Shown here in pieces: positions 11,482 to 36,110 of a stretch of 64,000 nt of DNA. The notes below the pieces were generated by a model. It did no database searches. It was not told the DNA's origin and was given only the letters and a program-made list of their open reading frames with translations. A program made the position numbers and the translations under genes. Position 1 is the first letter of the stretch. Each line of letters starts with the position of its first letter. The stretch spans positions 2,996 to 66,995 of the forward strand of contig CAZOUV010000004.1 in the NCBI GenBank assembly GCA_964583105.1, given 5' to 3'. Source of the stretch: an uncultured Gammaproteobacteria bacterium (GTDB lineage: Bacteria > Patescibacteriota > Microgenomatia > UBA8517).

Positions 11482-11510
11482 TTGACATTATGAACATATG
11501 TTCATATAAT
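11482..11510 (+). promoter_or_regulatory. perfect-consensus sigma70 promoter with an embedded 14-bp palindromic operator-like site
   Basis: TTGACA (11482-11487), 17-bp spacer, TATAAT (11505-11510), then ATG at 11519, only 8 nt downstream (leaderless-like). The spacer contains the perfect palindrome TGAACATATGTTCA (11491-11504), a GAAC-N4-GTTC Cheo-box-like dyad. Confidence 0.5.
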
Positions 11511-11518
11511 ACAGCTGT

Positions 11519-11995: not shown

Positions 11996-12005
11996 TGTTT
12001 TTAAC

Positions 12006-12203: not shown

Positions 12204-12205
12204 TT

Positions 12206-12889
12206 ATGAAACCAAATTTTATAGATATATCACGGGTAACATCAAAATCGCTTAAAGATAAAGAATATTTCTCCTCATTTCCCGAATACTACCAATTGGC
12301 CTCTGTAACTGAAAACGGTCTATGGCATAAAAATCAAAATGTTTTAGATCACGTTATTGATGTTTACTCCGGACTTGAGACGTTATTAAAATTCAATGAT
12401 TTGAAGATTGAGCAGAGAGATAAATTAAAAATCTATCTATCGGAAGTCGTCGGAAATATAACAAGACAAAACGTTCTTAAGGTTGCAACTTTGCTTCATG
12501 ATATTGCCAAAACTGACGTACTAATTAAAAGTTCCGATGGTAAAACCCTGTGCCCAGGCCATGATTTAATTGCGGCTGCAAGAGTAAAAACCTTTGCAGA
12601 AAGATTTGATCTAGATAGCAAAGCAGAATCGAATGTAGAGCAAATAGTCAGATATCATGGTTTTACCTCAGACATCCTAAATTTAATGATTGCAAATCAA
12701 GACAAAGATAAATACCTTCGAATATTTAATGAGACGGTTAGCGATGTGGCTATTGAGTTGGTTCTTTTAATGCACGCTGATTTATTGGGCTGTGACTTAG
12801 AAAAAAGTGATAAAAATGGATACGACAAGAGAATTACTCTTTTAGGGTGGATGTTAACAAACTTACTTAATAAGGTTACAGTAAGTTAA
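12206..12889 (+). CDS. HD-domain phosphohydrolase
   Basis: Metal-ligand motifs H (LDHVIDV), HD (LLHDIAK), H (PGHDLI) and D (MHADLLG) in HD-superfamily order. Confidence 0.65.
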   Translation: MKPNFIDISRVTSKSLKDKEYFSSFPEYYQLASVTENGLWHKNQNVLDHVIDVYSGLETLLKFNDLKIEQRDKLKIYLSEVVGNITRQNVLKVATLLHDIAKTDVLIKSSDGKTLCPGHDLIAAARVKTFAERFDLDSKAESNVEQIVRYHGFTSDILNLMIANQDKDKYLRIFNETVSDVAIELVLLMHADLLGCDLEKSDKNGYDKRITLLGWMLTNLLNKVTVS

Positions 12890-13575
12890 TCTGCTTTGAG
12901 GTTTCCTACGATTACCGTTATGTCATTTGTTTGTGAAGAAACGGTTTTGGTGGCTTCTAATTGGTAATCTTTTTTCAAGGTTTTTTCCAAGGCAATGATA
13001 AAATCGCGATCGATTCCAGTTTTAACAGTTATTTCGGTTTTTGTATAGTCGTAGGTTAATGCGTTTCCGGTTGAAAGAACACTAAACCCGGCAGTTTCAA
13101 TTAAAGTCTGAACCTTTCCCGCTTCCCCTTTGATTCCACTTCCATTTAATATCTTTATTTTATACTGACTTAAACTCGCACTGGGACTTGCTGTAGGTTT
13201 TAGAGTAGGTGAGATTGAAGGTTCTGCGATGACTTCCTGAGTTTGGGAACTATCCGTTTTATTTGTATCTGCAATTTTCTGAATGCCAAAAACATAAGCA
13301 AAAATTCCCCCTATAAGAAGACCTAAAAGAAGCATTCCGGGAATTAATATCCAAAGAACATTAAACGATGATTCCTTATTTGTTTTTTCTTCCTTTTCAG
13401 GTTCCGTCTCTTCTTTGACTGTATCCGGTTTAATCTCCTCCTTTATTTCCGGAGAATATTCAATATTTTCTTTAAATGTGGGATTATCTTCTGCTTTATC
13501 AACAATTTCCGTTTTTTTAGATTCTCCGCTTTTTACTTCTTCTACAACCATCCTCATTTTTTTCTTTTCTTCCAT
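12886..13575 (-). CDS. membrane-anchored LytR_C (LytR cell-envelope-related attenuator C-terminal) domain protein
   Basis: Acidic N-terminus, one TM helix (ILIPGMLLLGLLIGGIFAYVFGI), Pro/Ser/Thr linker, and a C-terminal KIKILNGSGIKGEAGKVQTLIETAGFSV...TEITV LytR_C-like fold. Confidence 0.55.
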   Translation of the reverse strand: MEEKKKMRMVVEEVKSGESKKTEIVDKAEDNPTFKENIEYSPEIKEEIKPDTVKEETEPEKEEKTNKESSFNVLWILIPGMLLLGLLIGGIFAYVFGIQKIADTNKTDSSQTQEVIAEPSISPTLKPTASPSASLSQYKIKILNGSGIKGEAGKVQTLIETAGFSVLSTGNALTYDYTKTEITVKTGIDRDFIIALEKTLKKDYQLEATKTVSSQTNDITVIVGNLKAD

Positions 13576-13670
13576 ACTTTAATTATATATACATTTTACA
13601 GATTATATCAATAAAGCAATAGAGAAAAATTGGTCATTTTCGGTTAAAATGGTAAAATTAACAAGTATTT

Positions 13671-13746
13671 GGTGGGTGTAGCTCAGTTGGTTTAGAGCGC
13701 CACTTTGTGGAAGTGGAAGTCGCGAGTTCAAGTCTCGTCACCCACC
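13671..13746 (+). tRNA. tRNA-His (anticodon GTG) with encoded G-1
   Basis: Extra 5' G at 13671 opposite discriminator C. Acceptor gtgggtg/cacccac, anticodon stem ccact/agtgg with loop ttGTGga, T-arm gcgag-ttcaagt-ctcgt. Accessory DNA starts immediately 3'. Confidence 0.8.
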
Positions 13747-14136
13747 CAAGACTGAACTCATAAAAACGGGTGAGCTTGCTTTAGCCTCGAAGGAAGAGTT
13801 CGATATAGCTTTTTCAATATATTTAAATGGAGTCCTTGGTTTAATGGATAAAACTTTGTCTTTAATAGTTATTTCGCTTCCTGTAACCAACAAGATATTC
13901 TTTCTGTCTTCTGTCGTGCCATAATCCCATCTGTTTTTTAATGATATGGTGAAGTTAAACGTAGCAATCAAAGTATCAGTCCATTCGGATAGCTCATGAT
14001 CGGAGTTTTTCATTCTCCTATAAATGCTTTGTTTTTCAATCAAATACTTTTGTTTAAATCGTTTGTATTCTTCATTCGAAAGAAGTTCCTTGTCTTCATT
14101 TTCAACGGATAGCCACTTTTCGGTTAAGTTGTCCAT
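13738..14136 (-). CDS. C-terminal (coiled-coil) fragment of the large serine recombinase, in a different frame from the main ORF
   Basis: 132-aa ORF overlapping the stop of 14124..15293 by 13 nt. Together they total ~520 aa, the normal size of a large serine recombinase. Confidence 0.4.
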   Translation of the reverse strand: MDNLTEKWLSVENEDKELLSNEEYKRFKQKYLIEKQSIYRRMKNSDHELSEWTDTLIATFNFTISLKNRWDYGTTEDRKNILLVTGSEITIKDKVLSIKPRTPFKYIEKAISNSSFEAKASSPVFMSSVLGG

Positions 14137-15293
14137 CTTTGAAATGGCATTAGTATAGTCTGCCTTAAGTACGCCATGCTGTTTAAGTCTAACCGCCCGA
14201 TCCTGTCTTCCGCTTCTCTAAGCCATTTAATCATCCAATCAACATAACTTTTTTTAATAGTTAGGTTAGATAAGTATTTGCTGACTCGTTCCTTAAGTTC
14301 CGGGGCCGCTACCATAGGTTGATTACAGCCGATTCCCTTTTTACAACACTTGTAGTAATCAAAGACCTTACCGCTTTTTTTTGGATGAGTTTCCCCCGTC
14401 CAACGATAACCACATTCACCACACTTAATTGAACCTTGAAAATCAAAGGTATGAGTTTGGATTCGTGGATGACCTTTATTGACTAGAGCATCCTGAACAG
14501 CATCAAATTCAGAGTCGCTTACCATTGGAGTATGTTTACCTTGATAGGTAACACCATCGTAAATAAATCTGCCGGTATAAAAAGGATTTCGTAAGATATT
14601 GTATAACTGAGTTCTGCTTATTGATCTTCCCCTATTTGTTTTGATTCCCATTTGTATTGCTTTTCTGTAAAGCTCTTTAGTTGAAAACTTTCCTGTTATC
14701 GCCAGTTCAAAGATATGTTTTACTAATCTAAAGTAGAGAGGATGTGGAGATATTGTTCTTTCTCCTTGCCTTTTCTCTAAATCATTTTTGTATCCTGCCG
14801 GAGCCAGTCCTGGATAATCACCCAATTCAAGTTTTCTATCAACTCCCCGTTTAGTATCAATTCTTAAATCTCTGATAAACCTTTGTCCTTGGGAGCCTTC
14901 GATGGCCAAAGTAAAGTCTGAATCAGTTTCATCATAGGTTTTACTTGGCGTAACTATTTCAAGAATTCTTCCATCTGACAACCTTTGTCTGACAAGTCCT
15001 TCATCCTGAGGATTTCTAAAAAGTCTATTTGGTTTCCATGCAATAATGCCTTTGATATCTTGCCTTGTATCAATCATCTGAATTAGTTTGTTGAACTCTT
15101 CCCTTCCCGGTGCTTTTGCAGATTTACTTTCCGTATAAGTTGATAATATATTTAGTTTTCTCTCTTCCGCTAGTCGATAAAGTACTTCTAATTGATTCTC
15201 TATACTGACAACTTGTTGATCCTCACCTTCGGAGGATTTTCTAGCGTAGAGCAGATATTGGTCTTTCATAATTAATCTTTTGTCTAATTTCAT
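14124..15293 (-). CDS. large serine recombinase (resolvase/invertase catalytic domain + recombinase domain + zinc ribbon); probably frameshifted near its 3' end
   Basis: N-terminus LLYARKSSEGEDQQVVSIENQ (Y-x-R-x-S catalytic Ser motif), central recombinase domain, and a Cys cluster CGECGYRW...CCKKGIGC (zinc ribbon). Confidence 0.7.
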   Translation of the reverse strand: MKLDKRLIMKDQYLLYARKSSEGEDQQVVSIENQLEVLYRLAEERKLNILSTYTESKSAKAPGREEFNKLIQMIDTRQDIKGIIAWKPNRLFRNPQDEGLVRQRLSDGRILEIVTPSKTYDETDSDFTLAIEGSQGQRFIRDLRIDTKRGVDRKLELGDYPGLAPAGYKNDLEKRQGERTISPHPLYFRLVKHIFELAITGKFSTKELYRKAIQMGIKTNRGRSISRTQLYNILRNPFYTGRFIYDGVTYQGKHTPMVSDSEFDAVQDALVNKGHPRIQTHTFDFQGSIKCGECGYRWTGETHPKKSGKVFDYYKCCKKGIGCNQPMVAAPELKERVSKYLSNLTIKKSYVDWMIKWLREAEDRIGRLDLNSMAYLRQTILMPFQRWTT

Positions 15294-15298
15294 AGTAG

Positions 15299-15484
15299 TT
15301 AGTTAGAATATTTTGTCAATCCGACTGACTGGACTTTGTTCGAACTCTGAGGCTGTTTTATTAACATTTTGAATAAATTCATCATATTATTGGCCAAAGC
15401 GACTGCTTCTGAATCTGAAAGTATGGTGCTTTCTTCTTTAAAATAGATATTTTTAAACTCATCAATTGCTTTTTTTGGTAACAT
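15299..15484 (-). CDS. hypothetical protein (mobile-element cargo)
   Basis: 61-aa ORF co-oriented with the island genes. Confidence 0.25.
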   Translation of the reverse strand: MLPKKAIDEFKNIYFKEESTILSDSEAVALANNMMNLFKMLIKQPQSSNKVQSVGLTKYSN

Positions 15485-15490
15485 AAATTT

Positions 15491-15856
15491 TTATTTCTTC
15501 TCTTCAATTTCCTTTTCCAGTTTATCCAACCTGACTTCAACATCTGCTTTATCGTAAGCATCCAGGAAGCATCTAATTAGGAAACCCAGTGTATTTGCTA
15601 TTGGAGTAGCGGGAATATCCCCTCTCCAAACTCCATTTATTATCTTGGCAAGAAATATCTTTGCATCTTGGGCATTGTTCAAGCAGATTTCTTCTTCATA
15701 ATTTAATAGTGTTTTCTTTGGTGCCAAACCACCCTTTTTAACAGCCAGAGCTCTTTCTTCTTTTTTATGCGGATCATGAGTAAAACAAAAGGTACTATCA
15801 GATTGAGCATTGGCCTTACACTGAGAATTATTTTCTTTAATAAAAATGCATTTCAT
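15491..15856 (-). CDS. hypothetical protein, Cys/His-containing N-terminus
   Basis: 121 aa; CKANAQSDSTFCFTHDPH could be a small zinc-binding motif. Confidence 0.35.
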   Translation of the reverse strand: MKCIFIKENNSQCKANAQSDSTFCFTHDPHKKEERALAVKKGGLAPKKTLLNYEEEICLNNAQDAKIFLAKIINGVWRGDIPATPIANTLGFLIRCFLDAYDKADVEVRLDKLEKEIEEKK

Positions 15857-15857
15857 A

Positions 15858-16079
15858 CTAATTGTCAGTCTTTATTCCATACTTCTTCGTTAATTCCTCA
15901 GGAATGAACAAAACGTTGTCAAACTCATTAACCGGATAATTTTTCACCAAAACTTTTATTGTGTCGCTAGGCATTAATTTCCTAAACTTTCTTGCAAGAA
16001 TTTTTATTGTGTGTTTAGTAGACATGTCCCAATACCCTTCCATCTGAACTATAGAAAATAAGTTCCATAAAGCCGTCAT
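15858..16079 (-). CDS. hypothetical protein
   Basis: 73-aa ORF, tightly packed with its neighbours. Confidence 0.3.
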   Translation of the reverse strand: MTALWNLFSIVQMEGYWDMSTKHTIKILARKFRKLMPSDTIKVLVKNYPVNEFDNVLFIPEELTKKYGIKTDN

Positions 16080-16311
16080 TTAAACGGATCTTTTGTTCCA
16101 GTTCATTTAGATCTTTAGTTGTTTTTTCAATATCCGAAGACTTACTCAACTCTCTTTCCTTGTAGGCTTTCCATTCAGGAATACTAATTAAATCCTTTGG
16201 TCCCAAATCAAATAGCCATCTTTCAATTTTAAGCATGGAACTATAGTCAAAACCTTGCATATTAGTAATCGTTTTTTCTATCGTTTCAATCCTGTTTAGT
16301 ATTGTTTTCAT
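16015..16311 (-). CDS. hypothetical protein
   Basis: 98-aa ORF overlapping neighbours in operon-like fashion. Confidence 0.3.
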   Translation of the reverse strand: MKTILNRIETIEKTITNMQGFDYSSMLKIERWLFDLGPKDLISIPEWKAYKERELSKSSDIEKTTKDLNELEQKIRLNDGFMELIFYSSDGRVLGHVY

Positions 16312-16495
16312 AAGCTTTACTTGTAGGGGTATCCCCTTCAGACAAAGATGTTCCTCCCAAAATTGGAGGTGGCATTCTTTTACCGTTTATGTAAAACGGT
16401 TCTTTCATCGATACAATAGGTATGTACTTATCAAAGTCTTCCTCTTTCGGATTTAACTTTTTCTCTATATTTTTTAGTCTTGTTGATGTATTCAT
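16286..16495 (-). CDS. hypothetical protein
   Basis: 69-aa ORF. Confidence 0.25.
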   Translation of the reverse strand: MNTSTRLKNIEKKLNPKEEDFDKYIPIVSMKEPFYINGKRMPPPILGGTSLSEGDTPTSKAYENNTKQD

Positions 16496-16579
16496 ATTTT
16501 CTTAGTGTTATTATTAGTTAGTTATTTTTGCCTCCTAGCTTAAAAGTTCAGTTCGCAGGAAAACTAGGAGGCAATAAAA

Positions 16580-17122
16580 CTATCCTTTCGGTGTGATGAA
16601 AGGACTCTCTCCTTCAAAGACAAGTTCTAGATCGATATTTTCTAACTTCTCATCGACTAGTTTTTTAACCTCCTTTGACAATTCTTCCTTTGGCTTTGGA
16701 AAGAGATCATACTTAACGTCCATTGGGGTTTTGCCATTCTTGCGGGCTATTATCATGTCATATCCTCGTAAATCTCCCCAAGCTTCAATCTCCTCGTAAC
16801 CTTTTAAAGAATCCTGTATTCCTCTTTGAGTTATTTCGAGAATTTGAACATCTCCAGCTTCTCGGTTTAGTACCGCAAACATCCAGAAATGCTTTGCTCT
16901 ATTTCTAGGATCCGTTTGGTTTTTAACATTAGCAGGTACTTCTTCTTCTGTTCTTACCCGAACAGCAGTTTTTTTATCGTCTTTCTCTATCCAATATTTC
17001 CAGCCAACAACTACTGGAGATAAAATGCGAAAAGAATTGTCGCCTTCCTCTAGTGTCATATAGGCTGTTTTTGTCTTAGGTATTTCGTAGCCTTTGGGTA
17101 AAACGCTCATAAATTTATTCAC
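16580..17122 (-). CDS. hypothetical protein (possible phage-type DNA-binding/recombination accessory protein)
   Basis: 180 aa, acidic C-terminus, located just upstream of the replication genes. No motif recognised. Confidence 0.35.
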   Translation of the reverse strand: MNKFMSVLPKGYEIPKTKTAYMTLEEGDNSFRILSPVVVGWKYWIEKDDKKTAVRVRTEEEVPANVKNQTDPRNRAKHFWMFAVLNREAGDVQILEITQRGIQDSLKGYEEIEAWGDLRGYDMIIARKNGKTPMDVKYDLFPKPKEELSKEVKKLVDEKLENIDLELVFEGESPFITPKG

Positions 17123-17483
17123 CTCCTTTCTGTTTTCTGCTATATAAGTAGCAGTACTTGTTAACTTGAACTGAACTTTCTAATTTGAGTTGGGTTTGTA
17201 GTGTTAGCGGTTCCGCTTTTACCCCAAATAATGCTTCTGCATATTCCAAAATGGGAAATTCAACATTTGCTCGATAAAAAGAAAGTGCTGGTTTTTTGCT
17301 TCTTATATAAGGAAGAACATGTTCACAGAAATTTTTATACCTTTTAAGATTAAGAATTACTTTTGGTTTTATGTAAAGTTTTGTAAACTCTTTATCCTTA
17401 ACCACTAAAGCTTCCGCGTTTCTTTGACAGTAAGAACTTAGCACTTCTTCGCAGTTTTCAAATTTGGTTACTATATATTTCAT
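17115..17483 (-). CDS. hypothetical protein
   Basis: 122-aa ORF overlapping neighbours by a few nt. Confidence 0.3.
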   Translation of the reverse strand: MKYIVTKFENCEEVLSSYCQRNAEALVVKDKEFTKLYIKPKVILNLKRYKNFCEHVLPYIRSKKPALSFYRANVEFPILEYAEALFGVKAEPLTLQTQLKLESSVQVNKYCYLYSRKQKGGE

Positions 17484-18907
17484 ACTTTTTCTACCTCCGT
17501 TTCGGTTATTTCTTTGATTTCCTTAGGCTCTTCGGACACTAGGGACGCTTTTACAATCGTCTGTCGGTTCTTGTTAGGATTTGTGTATTCCAATCCATAT
17601 TGTTCTGCTAAGGATTCAATTAAGTCCGGATCAAATTCAATTCCCCTTTTACTTCTATCGGCATTTCTAATCATCTTGAAACCAAGTCCCCTTAGCTCTG
17701 ATCCAATTTTGTCTAGGCCATACCAAAACTTTTCTGCTCTTTCTAAATTTATTTGTGTTGTTATGTCTTGAGTCGATAAAAAGTTAGTATTTGCAATAAC
17801 ACTTCCTTGTAATGCAACAACCGCATTTAATAGTTTTGACTCAAGGGTTGATCCAGCTTCGTCTTTCTTTTGCGTTCTCGCATAGGCTCTAAAGTTAATA
17901 AAGTTCTTTTCATAATCAGGGAATAGTGTTCTTATCATCTGGTGGTATCCTCTTAAGTAGTTTTCGAGTTTTCCTGCTCTATCTTTGGTTAAGCCTATAA
18001 AGGAAGTATTAAAGTGAGCCATTCTAAAAGCGGTAAGCTTTTCTTTATAAGGAAGCCCTAATTCTGGTGTCGCTTCTACGTTAAATACTTTCTTGCTAAA
18101 GGGCATATTGAAAACAATGCATCTTGCTTCTGTTATTGCATCAACCATTACATTTGAAGTAGCTGCGGTAAGTCCAAATACTGAAAAATCCACCATATCC
18201 TTAAAAGCTCCTCTTTCCGGGTAAAGTACTCTCGAAGAGACAACTCCTCTTTCTGCTCGTCCAAAGATGAGATCTTCTGAATTACTTTTTTCTACCTTTA
18301 GTGGAAAGTTTCTAACATCAAAGAATAGCGAAGCTTCGTAATCACTTGCCCACCTAATAATATTTGGTTCTCTAAAGGTTTCTGTAAAGACTCCTCTTCT
18401 ACTTATGTACGCTAAAGCTTTAAGTGTTGGAGTTTTACCCCGGTCTTTTGTCGCAACCAAGAAAAGAATCGGAGAAAAGTTAAACTTCTCTATTAAGTGG
18501 GAATGAAAAGCAGTCCAAACCAAATAGTCATAATGAAGTTCTGTTGGCAAATCACTAAATTGCTTAAAGTAAGCTATTAACTCCGGATAAAGAGTTTTAT
18601 TGCAATATTGACAGACGGTAGTAGACGCGTCCTTAGTGTCCGTAGTGGTATGCTTTTCAAGTTCTTCAAGCACATTTTCAACCCTTGGTGTAAGCCAGGA
18701 TACTTTTTCTGGAGAGAAGTACTCTTTTCCACCAACAACAACTTTTGTAGTCAATTCTTTGTCAAAAGTTAGAAACTTAATGACTCCCTTTTCGTCAACT
18801 AAATCTACCAAGCCCTTAAAGTTGCCAAGATAAAAGACTCTATCTCTTTTCTCTTGAGTTACATCTTTAGCTGCTTTTGTTAATATCTCTTTATCCTTTT
18901 TCTTCAT
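17480..18907 (-). CDS. P-loop NTPase, putative replication protein (helicase/primase-associated)
   Basis: 475 aa. Walker-A-like LVATKDRGKT and a downstream hhhhD (LFFDV) Walker-B-like motif. Translationally coupled to the primase-zinc-finger gene. Confidence 0.45.
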   Translation of the reverse strand: MKKKDKEILTKAAKDVTQEKRDRVFYLGNFKGLVDLVDEKGVIKFLTFDKELTTKVVVGGKEYFSPEKVSWLTPRVENVLEELEKHTTTDTKDASTTVCQYCNKTLYPELIAYFKQFSDLPTELHYDYLVWTAFHSHLIEKFNFSPILFLVATKDRGKTPTLKALAYISRRGVFTETFREPNIIRWASDYEASLFFDVRNFPLKVEKSNSEDLIFGRAERGVVSSRVLYPERGAFKDMVDFSVFGLTAATSNVMVDAITEARCIVFNMPFSKKVFNVEATPELGLPYKEKLTAFRMAHFNTSFIGLTKDRAGKLENYLRGYHQMIRTLFPDYEKNFINFRAYARTQKKDEAGSTLESKLLNAVVALQGSVIANTNFLSTQDITTQINLERAEKFWYGLDKIGSELRGLGFKMIRNADRSKRGIEFDPDLIESLAEQYGLEYTNPNKNRQTIVKASLVSEEPKEIKEITETEVEKV

Positions 18908-19536
18908 ATCTGCAGTTTTCTAACTATTTCCATAAAACTCATATCTGGATTCAGTTTTTGCATATAGTCAATGCTGTTAAATCCGTGTTGGCCGCAACCA
19001 AAACAGTGAAAACTATTATCTTCATAGATATAGAAGCTGGGATTTTTCTCTCCGTGGAAGGGGCAGGGCGCTCTAAACTTATTGCCACACTGTTTCGCAT
19101 CCTCTAATAAGTACTGAATAGGATATTCTCTTGCCTGTTGTACTAATTTATCATTAAGGTGTTTTACTTCTGGCTCATAACCCGACAATCTTAACCAATA
19201 CTTTAACCAGTTTTTGAAGTTATTTTCGTACTCTTGAAGAGAATATGCTAAAACCTTTTTGTGTAGATCACTAGTTAGATTACTATTCTTAAACTCCTTT
19301 AAGTATTTCTCCTTGTTTTTATACAATTCCTTTATTTTGGTAACAGCAACATCTTCAACGCATTTTTTGAACTCTGGCTCAACTTCAGAACTGTATGGGG
19401 GATTTGTTTGATTGAATTTGCAACTCTTGTTTAGTGGATAGTTAGTGTAATCGATAGCATTTGAAGGTTGGTTTTTAATAAACTTTTCAAATTTTAAATT
19501 ATCTTTTTCTGTCCAACAGTTTCTTAAATTATTCAT
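18904..19536 (-). CDS. protein with C-terminal DnaG-type CHC2 primase zinc finger
   Basis: CPFHGEKNPSFYIYEDNSFHCFGCGQHGFNSIDYM matches the DnaG zinc-binding domain (CPFHxEKTPSF...FHCFGCG). Confidence 0.55.
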   Translation of the reverse strand: MNNLRNCWTEKDNLKFEKFIKNQPSNAIDYTNYPLNKSCKFNQTNPPYSSEVEPEFKKCVEDVAVTKIKELYKNKEKYLKEFKNSNLTSDLHKKVLAYSLQEYENNFKNWLKYWLRLSGYEPEVKHLNDKLVQQAREYPIQYLLEDAKQCGNKFRAPCPFHGEKNPSFYIYEDNSFHCFGCGQHGFNSIDYMQKLNPDMSFMEIVRKLQI

Positions 19537-19547
19537 GTAAATCTTTC

Positions 19548-19805
19548 TTATTTATTCTTTATTTCAAAAACCTTATTTCGGAATGTTTCCACGGCATCTA
19601 GTAAATCTTTTGGTTGAACTAGAGGAGCCTTTCTGCTCATGAAGTCATTAACTAATTGTTGACACGTATCAAAGGGGGAGAATCTGAAATATACCGTTTG
19701 TTCAACAGTTTTCGTACCAAGATATTCGATTCCTGGTTGGGTTAAAAGGAACGGGGCGACTTGTTTATCTTTACTTTCGTATATATTTTCCATTTTGTTT
19801 TCCAT
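19548..19805 (-). CDS. hypothetical protein
   Basis: 85-aa ORF. Confidence 0.25.
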   Translation of the reverse strand: MENKMENIYESKDKQVAPFLLTQPGIEYLGTKTVEQTVYFRFSPFDTCQQLVNDFMSRKAPLVQPKDLLDAVETFRNKVFEIKNK

Positions 19806-19999
19806 CTTTTATTTGTTCCATAAACTCCTTAATTTTCATTTGTTTGACACGATCAAACATCCTTTCGATTGCATCTGGCAATAAATCGGCGACCTTCTGA
19901 AAATCTGAGTTTGATTTCATGCTCCAATTGTCTTACCCAATGTGGGGAGCTGTAAAGATACCTAATGGGGATAAGACCTATCTGAAATGGGGACTTCCA

Positions 20000-20776
20000 C
20001 TATGGATTTTGGGGAAATGAGGAATATATTTGGTTATCTATAAAAATTCCAAACCCTTTTCGTTGAATACAAACCAGACCATTTGCCAAAAAACTATTTA
20101 ATTCAATTTTTTCTCTTATTTCTTTAAAAAGTTTTTTGGACGCCTCTTTTTGGGGCGCAGTTCCTTTAAAGTTTTTAAGGTCTCTCGGTAGATTGTAAAA
20201 ATCTTCATTTGTAACCCTGCTGTTTAGATTTTTTATCAGTAGATCCGCAGCTTTTAGTTGATATTCTCCTTCAAATTTAACCGAACTACCTAAAAAATTT
20301 AAAATTCCATTTTTAATGTCAAATTTCGGTAGGTAAAAGTTGAACCAATTTATAAAATCTACAAGCCTTTTTACATCAACCAGGCAGGCATAAAGTCCTC
20401 CTGGTTGTGGGCCAAAATCCCAATAATCCCTGTTGTACTTAATATAATAATTTGCTGTTTCGTCAGGTTCAAAATATGTTAATTGAATCGCCCTATTTGT
20501 TATTTGATCGTGCTTCGCATCCTTTGTTGTGCATGAGGTGCGTTTTGTAAACCACCGATTTTCTATTTTTTCAACAATTACTCCATTTTCAGAAAGTAAT
20601 CTCGGAACATTATCGTAGGAGTACCCAAAAGACCACGGAATTTCTTTAATGCTCGGATAATTAAAAGTTTTAATATCGCTTTTCGCTATATTTGCTATTG
20701 TATATTTATCCCCCCTTAAGATTGATTGGAAAATATTTTGAGCCACCAAGTAGGCGTCGTATTCAACGTTTTTCAT
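20000..20776 (-). CDS. hypothetical protein
   Basis: 258 aa, aromatic-rich; no motif recognised. Last minus-strand gene of the island block. Confidence 0.4.
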   Translation of the reverse strand: MKNVEYDAYLVAQNIFQSILRGDKYTIANIAKSDIKTFNYPSIKEIPWSFGYSYDNVPRLLSENGVIVEKIENRWFTKRTSCTTKDAKHDQITNRAIQLTYFEPDETANYYIKYNRDYWDFGPQPGGLYACLVDVKRLVDFINWFNFYLPKFDIKNGILNFLGSSVKFEGEYQLKAADLLIKNLNSRVTNEDFYNLPRDLKNFKGTAPQKEASKKLFKEIREKIELNSFLANGLVCIQRKGFGIFIDNQIYSSFPQNP

Positions 20777-20892
20777 ATTCCATTTAAATACCCGTTTATC
20801 ACGGGCATTTTATACCTGTATTTTACCACTAATGATTTCAAATTTCTTAGATTTTTCCGATAAAGTGGAGTAAAATCGGCTTACTAGCTCAA

Positions 20893-21213
20893 ATGGAAGA
20901 CGAAAACAACGATTCGATTAAGGCAATTCTCTGGATCGCAGGAATTATATTTTTTGTGTGGCTTATTTTCTCTTCTGACAACAGTTCTAAACCCGAACGA
21001 ATAACTGAAGATTTTGAAAATGGTAATTCAATTGATATGGAGGTTGACCGTTCAATAACAAGCGATAATTGGGAATGTACAAGTAATTGCTCTGGGCATG
21101 ATGCAGGTTATGAATGGGCAGAAGAAAACGGAATTACTGATGCAAGTGATTGTGGCGGAAAATCAGAGTCCTTTATTGAGGGTTGTGAAGCTTACGCTAA
21201 CGAGAATTATTAA
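20893..21213 (+). CDS. membrane-anchored small Cys-rich protein
   Basis: N-terminal TM helix (ILWIAGIIFFVWLIF) then a Cys-rich ectodomain (CTSNCSGHDAGYEWAEENGITDASDCGG...GCEAY). Confidence 0.4.
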   Translation: MEDENNDSIKAILWIAGIIFFVWLIFSSDNSSKPERITEDFENGNSIDMEVDRSITSDNWECTSNCSGHDAGYEWAEENGITDASDCGGKSESFIEGCEAYANENY

Positions 21214-21216
21214 AGA

Positions 21217-21453
21217 TTATCTCCACCAGTTAATTGTACCCGTTCTTCCTGTATATGGGTTGTAGTTTCCTTTTGAACTATAATTATCAAACTTATATCT
21301 ATTTGGGCTAGTTCTATAATAGGAATTAACGTAAGTTCCACTCCTTGTGGTATATCCTCTTACACGAATAGTCCTTGCTTCAATAAATGAGGTTGATGCT
21401 GTAAGTAAAGTTATAGCTATTGCCAAAGAAAGAAGAAATTTCTTTATCATCAA
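21217..21453 (-). CDS. secreted Tyr/Arg-rich small protein
   Basis: Signal peptide (MMIKKFLLSLAIAITLLTASTSFIEA) then Y/R/T/N-rich repeats. Confidence 0.4.
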   Translation of the reverse strand: MMIKKFLLSLAIAITLLTASTSFIEARTIRVRGYTTRSGTYVNSYYRTSPNRYKFDNYSSKGNYNPYTGRTGTINWWR

Positions 21454-21544
21454 TTAAGTATAACAGCTCCTGTCAATAATTTCTTAGATTTTTCTGGAAA
21501 AAGGGTGTAAAATTTGGCTAGTAAGTTGTTTATAAATATGTAAT

Positions 21545-21847
21545 ATGAATATTAAATGGCCTTCAATTATTTCTGGGGTCCTTCTGCTCTTAGGAATATT
21601 GAATATTTGGCCATACGACTATTACACAATCCTCAGATGGGTTGTTTGCGGAGTAGCCATTTTCAACGCAATTGGGTTCTCAAAATCACAATTAACAGGT
21701 TGGGTGCTCGTTTTTGTAGCTTTAGCTTTTCTCTTTAATCCCCTTTTCCCTGTTTACTTAAATAAAAGTTCGTGGGTGGGAATAGATCTAATCTCAGCAT
21801 TTGTTTTCTTTTTATCCGCTTATTCAATTAGACAAAAAGCGAAATGA
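21545..21847 (+). CDS. small integral membrane protein (3 predicted TM helices)
   Basis: 100 aa, almost entirely hydrophobic helices. Confidence 0.4.
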   Translation: MNIKWPSIISGVLLLLGILNIWPYDYYTILRWVVCGVAIFNAIGFSKSQLTGWVLVFVALAFLFNPLFPVYLNKSSWVGIDLISAFVFFLSAYSIRQKAK

Positions 21848-23223
21848 AAAAGTTGTTTCTATTATTGCTTGAGATAAGCTTGTCATCGCTCTGGATTCTC
21901 AATTTTTTTGCAGGAATAGTTGGTGCAATTTGGCTGCTAGCTACTGGTGGATGGGGTTTGGTAGTAATCGGCTTGTTGTATAGCTTCCTAATGCCCTGGG
22001 TTTACACTGTTGCCTCGCTACCCACATGGTTGATCGTGCCGCTAGTCGTAAAATCCGCTGAAAAGGGAAAAAGACTTACGACCGCAATATTAGGCTTTAT
22101 TCTTTCGGGATATAACAATTTTATTTTATCTATTTGGGTTATCACTATATTTGTATGGGTAGTTTCAAACACACAGTATCCAATAATTGCTGTTTTACTT
22201 TGGGGGTATTCAGTTGTAATGGGGCCCGTAGGATATATGGCAGCGAAGGAAGGCCCTGAAGCAGGAACTGGCACAACATTAGGGGTTCTTTTTACACAAA
22301 TCGCCTATTTGGTTCTAGTTGTTAATTTACTATTCGGGAACTCTACTCTTGATGGAGACATTTGGTTATGGATTCTTATATTTCTCTTCACATTATTTAC
22401 ATCCTGGATGGGTTACATGTCTGTTTCAGGTAATACACAAGAAAAACTTGGTGAACTCATTCCAATAGAACCCGAGTTAGATTCAAATAAAACTGAAGAT
22501 GCTGTCCCACTTTCTGATGAAGATATTGTTTCAGAGAAAGCCAATCTCGATTCTTCAGCTTACGATTTGATAGATATACTGGATAGGGATCTTATCGACG
22601 GTAAATTTAAAGAAGCTATTGTTATTTGTAACAAGATACTTAAGAAGGACCCCAAGAACATTCATGCGACATTTAATTTAGGCTTTTGTTATCAAAGACT
22701 GAAGCAACACAAAAAAGCCATAGGCTATTTTAACAAAACATTAAAGCTAGATGAAAACCATTTAATAGCCATGTCAAACAAAGCCATATCTCTCGGAGAA
22801 TTGGGAGAACTTAAAGACGCTAATTTACTATATAAAAGCCTGCTCAAACGGGCTATTTCAAATGGCAATAAGTCGGTTGCGATGTTTGCCAGCTATAACC
22901 TTAATAATTTTGGACAAAGTCTAGATTTGGCTGATGATTTGTTATCCGAAAACTCAGACGATCTAGACGCCTTATTTTATAAGTCCTTAGCACTGAAAGA
23001 TTTGCAACGATACAAAGAATCAATGACAACAGCCTACCACTTGCTAACCCTACAACCAGAAAACATTTTTGCTATGGGTTTAATTGGAGATATTTACTAT
23101 CAAATCAAGAAATATCAAGAGTCTATAGATATATTTAATGAATTGCTAAAAATAAACCCGAATGATCCTAACGCCACGAGAGGTATAAAGCAAGCAGAAC
23201 TGGAATTATTAAAAACAAATTAA
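21844..23223 (+). CDS. polytopic membrane protein with C-terminal TPR repeats
   Basis: N-terminal ~200 aa with ~6 hydrophobic helices. C-terminal ~230 aa with TPR-like 34-residue repeats (e.g. ...FNLGFCYQRLKQHKKAIGYFNKTLKLDENH...). Confidence 0.5.
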   Translation: MKKLFLLLLEISLSSLWILNFFAGIVGAIWLLATGGWGLVVIGLLYSFLMPWVYTVASLPTWLIVPLVVKSAEKGKRLTTAILGFILSGYNNFILSIWVITIFVWVVSNTQYPIIAVLLWGYSVVMGPVGYMAAKEGPEAGTGTTLGVLFTQIAYLVLVVNLLFGNSTLDGDIWLWILIFLFTLFTSWMGYMSVSGNTQEKLGELIPIEPELDSNKTEDAVPLSDEDIVSEKANLDSSAYDLIDILDRDLIDGKFKEAIVICNKILKKDPKNIHATFNLGFCYQRLKQHKKAIGYFNKTLKLDENHLIAMSNKAISLGELGELKDANLLYKSLLKRAISNGNKSVAMFASYNLNNFGQSLDLADDLLSENSDDLDALFYKSLALKDLQRYKESMTTAYHLLTLQPENIFAMGLIGDIYYQIKKYQESIDIFNELLKINPNDPNATRGIKQAELELLKTN

Positions 23224-24019: not shown

Positions 24020-24697
24020 ATGATTTTAATTAAAAACACATCACTAATTGAGTACGATGATTTACTTGAGAAAGCTATAAAAATCTGCGTCCAATATGAC
24101 GCAGTTTCTCCAAGTCTGTTTCAAAGGAGATTGGAAGTGGGTTATGCTCGTGCGTCTCGATTAATTGATCAGTTAGAATTTGCAGGAATATTAGAATCAT
24201 CAAGGGGCAATAATTTACCTAGAAAGGTTCTTACATTTAAGAATAACAAGACGACCAAAAAGTCACCATTTTTTAAAGAAGGATCGGAAGGGTATCTAAT
24301 GAGTTGCGCACAACTAATTAAATATACTCTTGAAGCTCATGGTATTTGGGTAAGGGTTAACTCAATTGAAATTACATCGCAAAACATATGCTTTTATATG
24401 GAAGTTGCTCTTGGAACAATAATTAATAAGATTTTGAAATTAAAGAAGGAACTAGCTCTATCTCTTGCCTCACCTACCGGAAATATAATTATTGCAGCCC
24501 CATTTAAAGGAACTTCTTTAGTAGCTCTATACTTGCCTACTAAAAATAATTTAAGAAAAGCAAGCTATCGTGTTATTAATGAAGAATTTGTAATAAAACC
24601 TCCACAATACCCATATTTATATGCAATAAAAACCTTTTTCCAAAGATTCTTCTTACGAATATCAAATTATTTTTACGATCTTGCATATAAGATATAG
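24020..24697 (+). CDS. orphan FtsK-like protein: FtsK gamma (winged-helix) domain followed by an FtsK alpha-like domain, no ATPase
   Basis: Residues ~25-70 VSPSLFQRRLEVGYARASRLIDQLEFAGILESSRGNNLPRKVL match the FtsK/SpoIIIE gamma-domain consensus (SLLQRRLRIGYNRAARLIDQLE..GIV...GSKPREVL). The C-terminal LEAHGIWVRVNSIEI...FYMEVALGT...LAL.LA...IIAAPFKGTSLVALYLP resembles the FtsK alpha domain. Confidence 0.5.
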   Translation: MILIKNTSLIEYDDLLEKAIKICVQYDAVSPSLFQRRLEVGYARASRLIDQLEFAGILESSRGNNLPRKVLTFKNNKTTKKSPFFKEGSEGYLMSCAQLIKYTLEAHGIWVRVNSIEITSQNICFYMEVALGTIINKILKLKKELALSLASPTGNIIIAAPFKGTSLVALYLPTKNNLRKASYRVINEEFVIKPPQYPYLYAIKTFFQRFFLRISNYFYDLAYKI

Positions 24698-24905: not shown

Positions 24906-25334
24906 TTATTGACTTATTACCTTTCCTTCTATTGGGTCAATTGTTAGTTCGTATGTTGGTAAATACCCTGCGTGATCATGTTGATTATTCGAAATAACCA
25001 CAAGCATTTTTTCATCTTTCTGCCCCTTTTTTACTGTTGCCGATATAAAACTTGAATTTGCCGTTCCTTGTTCAAACATTTTTGGATATTCGTTTCTTGA
25101 GATGCTGAAAGAAGAAAATGGAACAGTTACATTTTCAAAAGGTTCAATATAAATTTCATCATTTAGAACAAGAATATCCAAGATACCTTGGTTCGTGTCA
25201 AGTGAAATCAAGGTATCTAATTGGGTATTCGAAATTAGGTTGGTATCTATGGCGAAATGTGATTTAGCTACACCAAAGCCCAACAAAGCTCCTATAAACA
25301 GTATTAATATTCCGAAGATAACTTTTTTCAGCAT
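24906..25334 (-). CDS. membrane-anchored extracytoplasmic protein
   Basis: N-terminal TM/signal anchor (VIFGILILFIGALLGFGVA), 142 aa. Confidence 0.35.
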   Translation of the reverse strand: MLKKVIFGILILFIGALLGFGVAKSHFAIDTNLISNTQLDTLISLDTNQGILDILVLNDEIYIEPFENVTVPFSSFSISRNEYPKMFEQGTANSSFISATVKKGQKDEKMLVVISNNQHDHAGYLPTYELTIDPIEGKVISQ

Positions 25335-35603: not shown

Positions 35604-36110
35604 ATGAAGAAGGTATCTTCTTGGAAAAAATATCATAGATTCCAAAAAAGACCGGGGTGGTGCGGTCCTGCAGTTATTCAAATGCTACTGGCTAAATGCG
35701 GAAGGCGAATTCCTCAGGCTGAAATTGCCAAAGATGTCTATAAAGACTGGTGGGGAACTTCACAACAAATGATTCTTGCTTATTTAAGCAGGTTTTTTAA
35801 GCTTGTAAATTTTAAGGAAAATGCAACGTTTTCGGATATTACTGATCATCTAACTAAAGGTAACTTAATTATTGTTAACTGGTGGGATGATTTTGATGAA
35901 AATGATCCGGGGGGGCACTACTCAGTTGTTGCTGATTATGACAGTAAGCTTGCGGCACTTACCCTTGCAGATCCTTCAAATGAAAGACCTGGTATTTGGA
36001 CAATCTCTGAAACTGAATTTCGATCCAAATGGTACGACAGTTTGGATGTGCGTGACAAAAAATGGATTACAGGCTGGATGCTCTGGGTTGATCCCAAAAC
36101 TTTAATTTAA
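35604..36110 (+). CDS. stand-alone C39-like cysteine peptidase domain protein (paralogue of 32465..33064)
   Basis: RPGWCGPAVIQMLL (Q/C-G-x-A), GGHYSVVADYD (His) and LADPS (Asp) are the three C39 signature blocks. 168 aa, no signal peptide, no transporter domain. Confidence 0.6.
   Translation: MKKVSSWKKYHRFQKRPGWCGPAVIQMLLAKCGRRIPQAEIAKDVYKDWWGTSQQMILAYLSRFFKLVNFKENATFSDITDHLTKGNLIIVNWWDDFDENDPGGHYSVVADYDSKLAALTLADPSNERPGIWTISETEFRSKWYDSLDVRDKKWITGWMLWVDPKTLI

What the first reader, a model, noticed from the sequence alone, without database searches (positions are those of the whole stretch)
13671..20850. tRNA-His-adjacent integrated element with a large serine recombinase and a primase-zinc-finger/P-loop replication module
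Accessory DNA starts at the nucleotide after tRNA-His(GTG). The first genes are a large serine recombinase (13738..15293, Y-x-R-x-S motif and zinc ribbon), followed by ~11 co-oriented small ORFs. These include a 475-aa P-loop NTPase (TKDRGKT) translationally coupled to a protein ending in a DnaG-type CHC2 zinc finger (CPFHGEKNPSF...FHCFGCG). No structural phage genes are present, so this looks like a small integrative plasmid-like or satellite-like element rather than a full prophage. The right end is not defined. The minus-strand block ends near 20.8 kb, but surface-protein genes and the tyrosine recombinase/array continue to 36.1 kb, where core genes resume. tRNA-His to 36.1 kb could be one composite island.
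Basis: partly seen in the sequence, partly recalled or inferred. Interest (0 to 1): 0.6.

Follow-up and report, generated by a model that had tools for sequence, protein, structure and literature searches.

The report
Decaying integrative replicon at tRNA-His
This is a small mobile DNA element, with no virus-particle genes, inserted by a serine recombinase at the end of the tRNA-His gene of a candidate-phyla-radiation bacterium. It carries its own replication helicase, but this copy looks disabled. It belongs to an undescribed family whose recombinase genes end inside tRNA genes, which is a rare target for this enzyme class.

Summary
tRNA-His is at 13672-13747. A large serine recombinase (LSR) gene converges on it, and its stop codon lies 10 nt inside the tRNA. 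The LSR is not one ORF: a 1-nt deletion near 14205 splits it into 389 + 132 aa. The 475-aa P-loop protein has the fold of an SF3 (D5/PriRep1/NrS-1-type) helicase. It belongs to a family with no Pfam model (708 clusters) that is often fused to DnaG- or AEP-type primases. The coupled 210-aa protein has only the DnaG zinc-binding domain, and no primase catalytic domain was found. No virion genes are present.

Related Microgenomates/Woesebacteria genomes join LytR_C directly to the C39 peptidase, so 13.75-35.6 kb is lineage-specific. Related LSRs end inside convergent tRNA genes at 16 junctions (8 His). One relative (helicase 58% identical) occurs both integrated in comM and as an 8,061-bp circle.

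Relatives at tRNA-His also carry a DUF6804 gene, and one carries a membrane FtsK-like gene. Fragments of that gene lie at 21.5-24.7 kb, so the element probably extends past 20.85 kb. Best reading: a probably immobilised copy of a modular, AICE/SCC-like integrative replicon. Its right end remains undefined.

The parts
13672..13747 (+). tRNA-His(GTG), the integration target. The cloverleaf is intact and G-1 is at 13671. CCA is not encoded; the gene is followed by CAA.
   Evidence: ARAGORN; Rfam RF00005, 66 bits; sequence
13738..13790 (.). Left att junction (tRNA-side half plus element-side half). The sequence GTCTT|GGGTGG(C/G)TGA is conserved on the LSR strand in 5 related tRNA-His elements. The crossover is inferred within a few nt of 13745-13752.
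   Evidence: Junction alignments. The crossover position is inferred, not shown.
13738..15293 (-). Large serine recombinase gene, disrupted by a 1-nt deletion near 14205 (ORFs 14124-15293 and 13738-14136). The stop codon TGA lies inside tRNA-His, antisense.
   Evidence: Pfam PF00239/PF07508/PF13408; phrog_95 integrase, E 2e-55; intact homologues of 510-548 aa; DNA alignment; tblastn with the L103 LSR
15299..15484 (-). 61-aa gene always found immediately upstream of this LSR clade (candidate accessory or directionality factor). The C-terminal third is out of frame here because of a 1-nt deletion near 15360.
   Evidence: tblastn, 67-70% identity to L005/L006 and also L038, L011, L031; DNA alignment. 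The function is inferred.
15491..15856 (-). 121-aa protein with a Cys/His-rich N-terminus. It recurs near the LSR in relatives (L057 45%, L100/L101 39%).
   Evidence: tblastn; only weak family hits
15858..16495 (-). Three small overlapping ORFs (73, 98 and 69 aa) with no homologues in any library or locus.
16580..17122 (-). 180-aa protein, a possible ssDNA-binding protein. It is conserved with the 122-aa gene in relatives (L100/L101 61%, L099 37%).
   Evidence: phrog_8542, E 5e-13, and a weak SSB hit phrog_1607, E 1e-3; tblastn; no PDB or Pfam hit
17115..17483 (-). 122-aa protein of unknown function. Its start overlaps the helicase stop. It is 61% identical in L100-L102.
17480..18907 (-). 475-aa SF3-type (D5-like) helicase. 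It has Walker A (ATKDRGKT), Walker B (D197), a motif-C-like TSN (N252) and a C-terminal winged-helix-like domain.
   Evidence: AF2 model, pLDDT 84; Foldseek PDB: ASFV PrimPol, NrS-1, PriRep1, D5, E5, SaPI5; BFVD; family of 708 clusters, often fused to primases; invariant residues
18904..19536 (-). 210-aa protein with a helical N-terminal part (WLKYWLRL motif) and a C-terminal DnaG-type CHC2 zinc-binding domain. It has no catalytic primase domain.
   Evidence: PF01807; TIGR01391, residues 148-208 only; PDB 1d0q/2au3; homologues of about 203 aa; low-confidence model
19548..20776 (-). 85-aa and 258-aa genes at the head of the minus-strand operon. No family is assignable.
20777..20892 (.). Divergent intergenic region. 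The 36-nt motif at 20841-20876 is repeated at 21478-21513, upstream of the DUF6804 gene.
   Evidence: the repeat finder family D6; sequence
20893..21453 (.). Two small secreted or membrane proteins: 106 aa on the + strand and 78 aa on the - strand (phrog_29674).
21545..21847 (+). DUF6804 membrane protein. It is the conserved first gene of the divergent module in related tRNA-His LSR elements (L103 73%, L005/L006 47%).
   Evidence: PF20619, E 2e-22; tblastn
21844..23223 (+). 459-aa protein. Residues 1-260 are homologous (52%) to the multi-TM N-terminal domain of the L103 FtsK-like protein. The C-terminal part is TPR repeats.
   Evidence: tblastn; Pfam TPR
24020..24697 (+). 225-aa fragment with FtsK gamma then alpha domains, the same order as in the L103 element protein. 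The ATPase motor domain is absent.
   Evidence: PF09397/PF17854; tblastn with L103 residues 224-281, and no motor hit in 20.5-27 kb
24906..25334 (-). 142-aa gene, 47% identical to the last gene of the DUF6804 cluster in L005. This is the furthest gene with a link to related elements.
   Evidence: tblastn
35604..36110 (+). Peptidase_C39 gene, the first conserved host gene on the right. It lies next to LytR_C in L008 and L009.
   Evidence: Pfam; synteny tblastn
12886..13575 (-). LytR_C-domain gene, the conserved host flank on the left.
   Evidence: Pfam; loci L006-L015 and L103

Best explanation
The block is one copy of a family of small, modular integrative replicons of CPR (Microgenomates/Woesebacteria-like) bacteria.

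How such elements work, shown for relatives and inferred here:
- A large serine recombinase recombines an attP that overlaps the 3' end of its own gene with the 3' tip of a tRNA gene, here tRNA-His.
- This leaves the recombinase ORF terminating antisense inside the tRNA. No long direct repeats are formed.
- After excision the circle is replicated by an SF3 (D5-like) hexameric helicase. The helicase is translationally coupled to a DnaG-type zinc-binding-domain protein, with a 122-aa protein and a possible ssDNA-binding protein.
- Priming is presumably supplied by the host DnaG or by an unrecognised activity.
- A divergent membrane module (DUF6804 plus a membrane-anchored FtsK/SpoIIIE-like translocase in relatives) may move the DNA between cells.

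In this window the copy is probably immobilised:
- The recombinase and its small partner gene each carry a 1-nt deletion.
- The FtsK-like gene is split, and its motor domain is missing.

The element spans at least 13.74-20.85 kb and probably reaches about 24.7-25.3 kb. It lies inside a 21.9-kb lineage-specific island (13.75-35.6 kb) that also holds a separate tyrosine-recombinase and repeat-array unit.
For: Shown here:
- LSR domains and the catalytic-serine motif.
- The frameshift relative to intact homologues of 510-548 aa.
- A 10-nt overlap of the LSR ORF with tRNA-His.
- The junction is confirmed by an independent contig.
- The helicase model (pLDDT 84) best matches SF3 helicases of primase-helicases: 9ivf, 6k9c, 7pds, 8apl, 8wh3, 7ola, and viral toprim/AEP-helicase fusions.
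- Family members are fused to DnaG-type or AEP primases.
- The zinc-binding domain is present.
- No virion genes were found.

Comparative evidence:
- C39 is adjacent to LytR_C in L008 and L009, so 13.75-35.6 kb is an insertion or variable region.
- The same geometry recurs at 16 LSR/tRNA junctions across 9 tRNA species. Eight are at tRNA-His, and five of those share GTCTT|GGGTGGCTGA.
- Different cargo sits behind related LSRs at the same site: a DnaB-type helicase in L006, no helicase in L103 and L104.
- L003 is an 8,061-bp circle of the element integrated in L001. The junctions share TCC, and joining the flanks restores a 504-aa ComM ORF.
- The DUF6804 gene (L005, L006, L103) and the FtsK-like gene (L103) are conserved, and pieces of the latter are found in the window.
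Against: - No right-hand att site, displaced tRNA fragment or attP-like arm could be found between 13 and 40 kb. The extent of the element is inferred from gene content only.
- No empty site or circular form of this particular element was found. Exact-protein look-ups failed or gave only the occupied junction.
- The two 1-nt deletions could be assembly errors. The independent contig L004 stops 20-25 nt short of the LSR frameshift.
- No primase catalytic domain and no origin iterons were detected, so autonomous replication is not demonstrated.
- The SSB assignment is weak (E 1e-3).
- The FtsK-like link rests on one intact relative (L103). The proven circular relative (L003) has no FtsK-like gene.
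- Foldseek TM-scores are low (0.3-0.4 against PDB, up to 0.61 against BFVD), although probabilities are 1.0.
Confidence: 0.8

Rival explanations
1. It is a phage satellite (PICI/SaPI- or P4-like). The element excises, replicates with its primase-helicase-type module, and is packaged by a helper phage of the same CPR host.
For: The element is small and has no virion genes. The SF3 helicase resembles the SaPI5 primase-helicase and other phage primase-helicases. Homologues of the helicase (about 43% identity) sit in 32-40-kb IMG/VR contigs, one of which has tail-fibre-like, virion structural and endolysin genes.
Against: No small terminase, capsid-size redirection, helper-interference or pac/cos-related genes were recognised in this element or in the 8-kb circular relative. 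The LSR clade was not found in IMG/VR. Relatives carry a membrane FtsK-like translocase, which points to cell-to-cell transfer.
Confidence: 0.15
2. It is the remnant of a full prophage. The structural and lysis modules were deleted, leaving only the integration and replication genes.
For: The LSR is frameshifted and the neighbouring module is rearranged, so decay is ongoing. Helicase relatives occur in real phages.
Against: Related elements with the same module order are complete at 5.5-11 kb without virion genes, including a closed 8,061-bp circle. There are no phage structural remnants anywhere between 13.7 and 28.6 kb.
Confidence: 0.07
3. It is a still-active element. The two 1-nt deletions are assembly or consensus errors, or are bypassed, and the element excises normally.
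For: The replication genes (ZBD protein, helicase, 122-aa and 180-aa proteins) align full-length with homologues. The frameshift site is not covered by the independent contig.
Against: There are two independent indels, both in the integration module, while the long host ORFs (975 and 1152 aa) are intact. The NCBI record itself lists the 389-aa product (P0035). The FtsK-like gene is also fragmentary.
Confidence: 0.25

Closest known systems
[quoted passage not shown] 2011, PMC3218068)
   Same: It has the same three-module logic in about 9-24 kb: a site-specific integrase, its own replication protein(s), and a single FtsK/SpoIIIE-type translocase with small membrane proteins. Integration is at a tRNA gene. 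A serine recombinase is used for a tRNA target, which that paper calls rare.
   Different: The host is CPR, not Actinomycetales. The replication protein is an SF3 helicase plus a ZBD protein, not RepSA, RepAM or Prim-Pol. The FtsK-like motor is absent from the window copy and is seen intact only in L103. No Pif/NUDIX or Spd homologues were recognised.
Staphylococcal cassette chromosome (SCC/SCCmec) elements (Bebel et al. 2020, PMC7581432; PriRep1 structure 7pds)
   Same: Large serine recombinase(s) insert the element at the extreme 3' end of a conserved host gene without long repeats. The element carries a helicase-centred replication operon with ssDNA-binding or priming partners. PriRep1 is among the best structural matches to the 475-aa protein.
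   Different: The target is tRNA-His, not rlmH. There is a single LSR rather than the CcrAB pair. No CCPol-MP-type primase-polymerase is present. There is no sequence-level homology (no Pfam or PDB sequence hit).
SaPI/PICI and P4-type satellites with primase-helicase replicons (SaPI5 structure 7ola)
   Same: These are small integrated elements that replicate after excision with an SF3 helicase linked to a primase module.
   Different: They use tyrosine integrases (from my own knowledge) and carry helper-exploitation or packaging genes. None of those was found here.
Ralstonia filamentous phage phiRSM1 (cited in PMC3218068)
   Same: A serine recombinase integrates it into the 3' end of a tRNA gene.
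   Different: It is an inovirus. Its recombinase type and all of its cargo differ. It was not compared by sequence here.

Membership tests
Large serine recombinase (serine integrase) | N-terminal resolvase catalytic domain with a serine nucleophile | tested here: met
   PF00239, E 5e-13, residues 15-156; motif YARKSS
Large serine recombinase (serine integrase) | Recombinase domain plus zinc-ribbon domain | tested here: met
   PF07508, E 8e-15; PF13408, E 2e-8; phrog_95 integrase, E 2e-55
Large serine recombinase (serine integrase) | Uninterrupted ORF including the C-terminal region (about 510-550 aa in this clade) | tested here: not met
   A 1-nt deletion near 14205 splits the gene into 389 + 132 aa
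Large serine recombinase (serine integrase) | Short att sites with a 2-bp crossover and no long direct repeats | tested here: inconclusive
   No repeat of the tRNA end occurs in the window, which is consistent. The right att site was not found. In the relative pair L001/L003 the junctions share only TCC.
SF3 helicase (D5 / PriRep1 / NrS-1 / P4-alpha type) | AAA+-like core with Walker A, Walker B and motif C (Asn) | tested here: met
   G157, K158, D197 and N252 are invariant or nearly invariant. Mapping these residues to the motifs is my reading of the alignment.
SF3 helicase (D5 / PriRep1 / NrS-1 / P4-alpha type) | Fold similarity to solved SF3 helicases | tested here: met
   Foldseek probability 1.0 and E 5e-6 to 8e-4 against 9ivf, 6k9c, 7pds, 8apl, 8wh3 and 7ola. 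TM-scores are only 0.30-0.39. BFVD best hit: E 1e-14, TM 0.61.
SF3 helicase (D5 / PriRep1 / NrS-1 / P4-alpha type) | Match to a curated sequence family (Pox_D5, DUF3987, VirE, etc.) | tested here: not met
   No Pfam, PHROG, NCBIfam or PADLOC hit
SF3 helicase (D5 / PriRep1 / NrS-1 / P4-alpha type) | Hexameric ATP-dependent 3'-5' unwinding | not testable with these tools
   Needs biochemistry
DnaG-type primase | CHC2 zinc-binding domain | tested here: met
   PF01807, E 8e-15; 1d0q, E 3e-9
DnaG-type primase | RNA-polymerase (DNAG_N plus Toprim) catalytic core | tested here: not met
   TIGR01391 matches only residues 148-208 (51 bits against a cutoff of 284). No Toprim or AEP hit occurs in any element ORF, even at E <= 10.
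AICE (Int + Rep + FtsK-type Tra) | Site-specific integrase at the element end, often next to a tRNA gene | tested here: met
   Serine type, at tRNA-His, but frameshifted
AICE (Int + Rep + FtsK-type Tra) | RepSA, RepAM or Prim-Pol replication protein | tested here: not met
   No such Pfam hit. The replication module is an SF3 helicase plus a ZBD protein.
AICE (Int + Rep + FtsK-type Tra) | FtsK/SpoIIIE motor domain (PF01580) translocase | tested here: not met
   The window has only gamma and alpha domains and no motor remnant. An intact 588-aa protein (TM + gamma + FtsK_SpoIIIE) is present in the related element L103.
Prophage | Capsid, terminase, tail and lysis genes | tested here: not met
   No such PHROG hits between 13.7 and 28.6 kb
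PICI/SaPI/P4-type satellite | Helper-exploitation or packaging genes (terS, capsid-size redirection, etc.) | tested here: not met
   None was recognised. Unknown small ORFs remain, so absence is not proven.
SCC element | Ccr-type LSR inserting at the rlmH 3' end | tested here: not met
   The target is tRNA-His

The most novel reading that the evidence does not exclude
CPR bacteria host a previously undescribed family of serine-recombinase elements. It may work as follows.

1. The family systematically targets the 3' tips of tRNA genes. I found 16 junctions across 9 tRNA species.
2. Its attP overlaps the recombinase's own stop codon. The enzyme's C-terminus is therefore rewritten on integration: the ORF ends inside the tRNA antisense strand, or fuses in frame to ComM in L001. 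This could act as a built-in switch of state or directionality.
3. The recombinase is combined, in a mix-and-match way, with a Pfam-less SF3 helicase plus ZBD replication module. It is also combined with an AICE-like single-protein (membrane FtsK-type) DNA-transfer module. That would be the first such conjugation-like system proposed for CPR episymbionts.
Probability: 0.2. Interest if true: 0.65.

Novelty: new variant of a known kind. Interest (0 to 1): 0.42.

Why it matters
Mobile elements of CPR/Patescibacteria are poorly charted, and my literature searches returned no paper describing this family. This locus and its relatives offer four things:

1. A ready-made set of natural serine integrases with mapped or closely bracketed attB sites in universally conserved tRNA genes. 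One fully resolved attP/attB/attL/attR set lies in comM. These are useful for integrase tool development and for genetics in uncultivated lineages.
2. A large helicase family (708 clusters at 50% identity) with no curated model, repeatedly fused to two unrelated primase types.
3. A hint that FtsK-type DNA transfer, known from actinomycete AICEs, may operate in CPR bacteria.
4. A practical point for genome annotation. The region from tRNA-His to C39 is a recombination hotspot in Microgenomates-like genomes, and the copy here is probably a fossil.

Tried and rejected
**Searches for the right att site**
- A repeat of the tRNA-His 3' end in the window: only the tRNA itself was found. Looser searches, including the L005 'P-arm', found nothing meaningful. 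No tRNA-3'-like motif occurs at the distal ends of the window or of six relatives.
- The repeat finder over 13-38 kb gave no plausible att pair.
- I looked by eye for dyad symmetry between the att arms and found nothing convincing.

**Searches for other forms of this element**
- Exact-protein look-ups for an alternative context of the window's own genes: the helicase and the 258-aa protein are not on record. LytR_C returned only the occupied junction.

**Function of the remaining proteins**
- The structure of the 210-aa ZBD protein came out at pLDDT 46 and was unusable, so no fold search was run.
- PDB sequence searches for the 180-aa and 258-aa proteins gave nothing, or antibody noise.
- Pfam at E <= 10, NCBIfam and PADLOC gave nothing on the unknown ORFs.
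- No relation was found between the 85-aa gene and DUF5659, or between the 258-aa gene and the 248-aa gene of L100.
- Origin iterons or tandem repeats in the intergenic regions: none was convincing.

**Library searches**
- IMG/VR with the single helicase sequence gave nothing. With the LSR alignment it also gave nothing.
- Rfam found only the tRNA between 12.5 and 37 kb.

**L005**
- I considered L005 as an unintegrated attP form. It may instead be a tandem insertion next to another element, so I did not rely on it for the crossover position.

Full report
**1. What is in the sequence**

ARAGORN finds tRNA-His(gtg) at 13672-13747 on the + strand, and Rfam agrees at 66 bits. A block of 12-13 minus-strand ORFs runs from 13738 to 20776.

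The recombinase has the Resolvase, Recombinase and Zn_ribbon_recom domains. It matches PHROG 95 'integrase' at E 2e-55 and carries the motif YARKSS.

It is not one ORF. The span 13738..15293 is 1556 nt, and the ORF list shows 14124-15293 (389 aa) plus 13738-14136 (132 aa). A merged query finds intact homologues of 510-548 aa at about 70% identity over 98-100% of its length. The NCBI record itself holds the 389-aa product. DNA alignment with the two closest homologous genes shows a single-base deletion near 14205, and tblastn with a third homologue switches frame at 14202-14205.

The conserved 61-aa gene just upstream of the LSR (15299-15484) also has a 1-nt deletion, near 15360. This puts its C-terminal third out of frame.

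The LSR stop codon (TGA, 13738-13740) lies 10 nt inside the tRNA, on the antisense strand. The tRNA is followed by CAA rather than an encoded CCA.

A Logan contig from SRR14492171 (L004) is 100% identical to window 12858-14181. The LytR_C / tRNA-His / LSR junction is therefore independently assembled. That contig stops short of the frameshift.

**2. The replication module**

*The helicase.* The 475-aa protein (17480-18907) has no Pfam, PHROG, NCBIfam or PADLOC hit. It nevertheless belongs to a large family:
- 34 close relatives.
- 708 clusters at 50% identity with E <= 1e-3.

In many members the homologous region is the C-terminal part of a 700-980-aa protein. The N-terminus of those proteins is one of two primase types:
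- a DnaG-type primase (Zn ribbon, DNAG_N, Toprim), or
- an archaeo-eukaryotic-type primase (RepB_primase or AEP, with PriCT_1).

An AlphaFold2 model built on 30 sequences is confident (pLDDT 84, pTM 0.77). Foldseek against the PDB returns, at probability 1.0, the SF3 helicase parts of these proteins:
- ASFV PrimPol
- NrS-1 polymerase
- PriRep1
- vaccinia D5
- mpox E5
- the SaPI5 primase-helicase

MCM and ORC follow further down the list. BFVD returns toprim-helicase fusions, VirE, DUF3987, DUF927 and D5-like proteins, with a best hit of E 1e-14 and TM 0.61. Invariant residues fit Walker A (G157, K158), Walker B (D197) and a motif-C Asn (N252). I conclude it is an SF3 helicase with no curated sequence model.

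*The zinc-finger protein.* The helicase ATG overlaps the stop of the 210-aa gene. The last 60 residues of that protein are a DnaG-type CHC2 zinc-binding domain. The rest is a conserved, apparently helical region with the motif WLKYWLRL. Its structure model was too poor to use (pLDDT 46).

*What is missing or weak.* No Toprim or AEP catalytic domain was found in any ORF of the block, even at E <= 10. The '180-aa SSB/SSAP' idea has only weak support: phrog_8542 of unknown function at E 5e-13, and an SSB PHROG at E 1e-3. There is no PDB or Pfam hit.

*Intactness and modularity.* The ZBD protein and the 122-, 180- and 121-aa proteins are all full-length relative to homologues in L100-L102 (61, 61, 61 and 39% identity). 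In those loci an unrelated 566-aa P-loop protein occupies the helicase slot, so the modules are exchangeable.

**3. Is it an insertion?**

A scan of GTDB genomes with the LytR_C flank returned nine Woesebacteria/Microgenomates/Patescibacteria loci. They share the window's order of tRNA-Gly, Pro, Leu, Arg and Lys.

In L008 (a Woesebacteria chromosome) and L009, the Peptidase_C39 gene (window 35604-36110) lies directly beside LytR_C. SBP_bac_5, a 134-aa gene, UvrC and a transglutaminase follow in the window's order. Nothing from window 13.75-35.6 kb is present in those genomes.

The region from tRNA-His to C39 (21.9 kb) is therefore lineage-specific.

L007, L008, L010, L013, L014 and L015 have no LSR within 10 kb of tRNA-His. 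L006, L011, L103, L104 and L106 have an LSR of the same clade (42-70% identity) at the same position, but with different cargo:
- a DnaB-type helicase in L006
- no helicase in L103
- a 5.5-kb mini-element in L104

This is the opposite of the 'ubiquitous syntenic block' that would refute mobility.

**4. A family signature**

I ran an LSR HMM together with ARAGORN over all fetched loci. In 16 distinct junctions the LSR ORF ends inside a convergent tRNA gene:

| tRNA | Junctions |
|---|---|
| His | 8 |
| Val | 1 |
| Ser | 1 |
| Lys | 1 |
| Asn | 1 |
| Thr | 1 |
| Trp | 1 |
| Gln | 1 |
| Leu | 1 |

In five tRNA-His cases the overlap is exactly 10 nt, and the junction reads GTCTT|GGGTGG(C/G)TGA.

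Ghinet et al. [quoted passage not shown] They cite phiRSM1 and a group of Mycobacterium AICEs at tRNA-Leu. A pipolin study shows the usual pattern instead: tyrosine recombinases go to tRNA genes with direct repeats, and LSRs go to protein-coding genes.

**5. Proof of mobility in a relative**

The relative has a helicase 58% identical and a ZBD protein 32% identical to the window's, plus an LSR of a different clade. It sits inside a comM-like gene in two samples (L001, L002). In a third sample it is an 8,091-bp contig with a 30-nt terminal overlap, which means an 8,061-bp circle (L003).

- The circle junction joins L001 positions 13259 and 5196 through a shared TCC.
- Joining the host flanks restores an uninterrupted 504-aa ComM ORF.
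- The attP crossover lies 4 nt before the LSR stop codon.
- In the integrated state the LSR ORF therefore reads on, in frame, into ComM (712 aa against 559 aa).

**6. Where does the window element end?**

I found no att-like repeat, displaced tRNA fragment or P-arm-like sequence. That is expected for an LSR crossover at the very tip of the tRNA, but it leaves the right end undefined by sequence.

Gene content suggests the element extends past 20.85 kb:
- L005, L006 and L103 all carry a DUF6804 gene transcribed away from the LSR operon (47-73% identity to window 21545-21847).
- In L103 the DUF6804 gene is followed by a 588-aa protein with a multi-TM N-domain, an FtsK gamma domain and an FtsK_SpoIIIE motor.
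- The window holds the N-domain (52% identity over 260 aa) fused to TPR repeats at 21844-23223.
- It holds a gamma-plus-alpha fragment at 24020-24697.
- It holds no motor domain.
- The 142-aa gene at 24906-25334 matches the last gene of the L005 DUF6804 cluster.

I therefore place the probable right limit at about 24.7-25.3 kb. The transfer-like module appears degenerate. The tyrosine recombinase (26578-27123) and the 130-nt repeat array (29.8-34.6 kb) appear to be a separate unit.

**7. Mechanism**

*Shown:*
- The LSR architecture and its position.
- The SF3 fold and primase association of the helicase family.
- Excision and circularisation, with restoration of the target gene, in a relative.
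- Variable occupancy of the site across related genomes.

*Inferred:*
- LSR-mediated attP x attB recombination at the tRNA-His tip.
- Replication of the excised circle by the helicase, the ZBD protein and a possible SSB, with priming borrowed from the host.
- The 61-aa protein as an accessory or directionality factor.
- FtsK-type intercellular transfer.
- Immobilisation of this copy by the two indels and the broken FtsK-like gene.

**8. Comparison, novelty and score**

In function the element most resembles two known kinds:
- AICEs, which combine Int, Rep and an FtsK-type Tra. Some use serine recombinases at tRNA-Leu.
- SCC elements, which combine an LSR inserting at the 3' end of a conserved gene with a helicase-centred replication operon (PMC7581432).

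It fails the membership tests for both, and for prophages and PICI/P4 satellites (see the table). The kind of thing, a small integrative replicon in a tRNA-linked island, is well known.

The variant features are:
- the CPR host
- the systematic overlap of the LSR ORF with a tRNA gene
- the helicase family with no curated model, paired with a ZBD-only partner
- the possible AICE-like module

I rate it a new variant of a known kind, of moderate interest (0.42). The rating is lowered because this particular copy looks defective and its right boundary is unresolved.

Noticed in passing
window 29837-34612 (also 28932-32441): Six copies of a repeat of about 130 nt lie between small ORFs at spacings of 374-1356 nt. 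The conserved core is about 70 nt (…CTTTAATATCTGATAATCAG…GAGTTCGAACATCGTTCACTAGCTCACCCTGAG). A second 28-39-nt repeat (ATAGTTTACTAACCCTGTAAAATAGC) is also present. A short (181-aa) Phage_integrase-domain gene at 26578-27123 and a 410-aa protein with no family hit lie just upstream. The layout looks like an integron or cassette array, but Rfam has no hit and the predicted hairpins show no covariation.
   Followed up: partly
L001 11584-13722 and L003 5217-6896: In the comM-integrated relative, the LSR ORF fuses in frame to the 153-aa C-terminal part of ComM (712 aa). In the circular form it ends after 559 aa. Integration therefore rewrites the recombinase C-terminus.
   Followed up: partly
L038 6984-7246: Two different tRNA-His genes lie in tandem next to an LSR that is 50% identical to the window's. 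One of them lies entirely inside the 3' end of the LSR ORF, on the antisense strand.
   Followed up: no
L104 4563-11578 (GCA_009772455.1): Two LSR elements sit in tandem beside tRNA-His. The distal one carries an EcoRI-type methylase and a GmrSD/HNH gene (defence-like cargo). Its LSR does not abut a tRNA.
   Followed up: no
L100 10609-12309; L101 4365-6065: An unrelated 566-aa P-loop protein replaces the 475-aa helicase. It sits exactly between the conserved ZBD and 122-aa genes (each 61% identical to the window's). This is a clean module swap.
   Followed up: partly
window 20841-20876 and 21478-21513: A 36-nt motif (83% identical copies) lies upstream of both the 106-aa gene and the DUF6804 gene. 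It may be a shared promoter or operator.
   Followed up: no
window 21217-21453 (-): A 78-aa signal-peptide protein rich in Tyr, Asn and Arg matches PHROG 29674 (unknown function) at E 1e-21. This is the only strong phage-family hit in the divergent module.
   Followed up: no
window 1574-13747 versus L011, L013, L015, L103, L104, L106: The order of the dispersed tRNA genes (Lys-ctt, Arg-tcg, Leu-taa, Pro-tgg, Gly-tcc, His-gtg) is conserved across Microgenomates-like genomes, although the intervening protein genes vary. In L008 and L009 tRNA-His lies on the other side of the C39 gene.
   Followed up: partly
L017 (IMG/VR UViG_3300031949_000092): A 40-kb predicted phage carries a 43%-identical homologue of the helicase. 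It also has tail-fibre-like, virion structural, endolysin and GroEL genes.
   Followed up: partly
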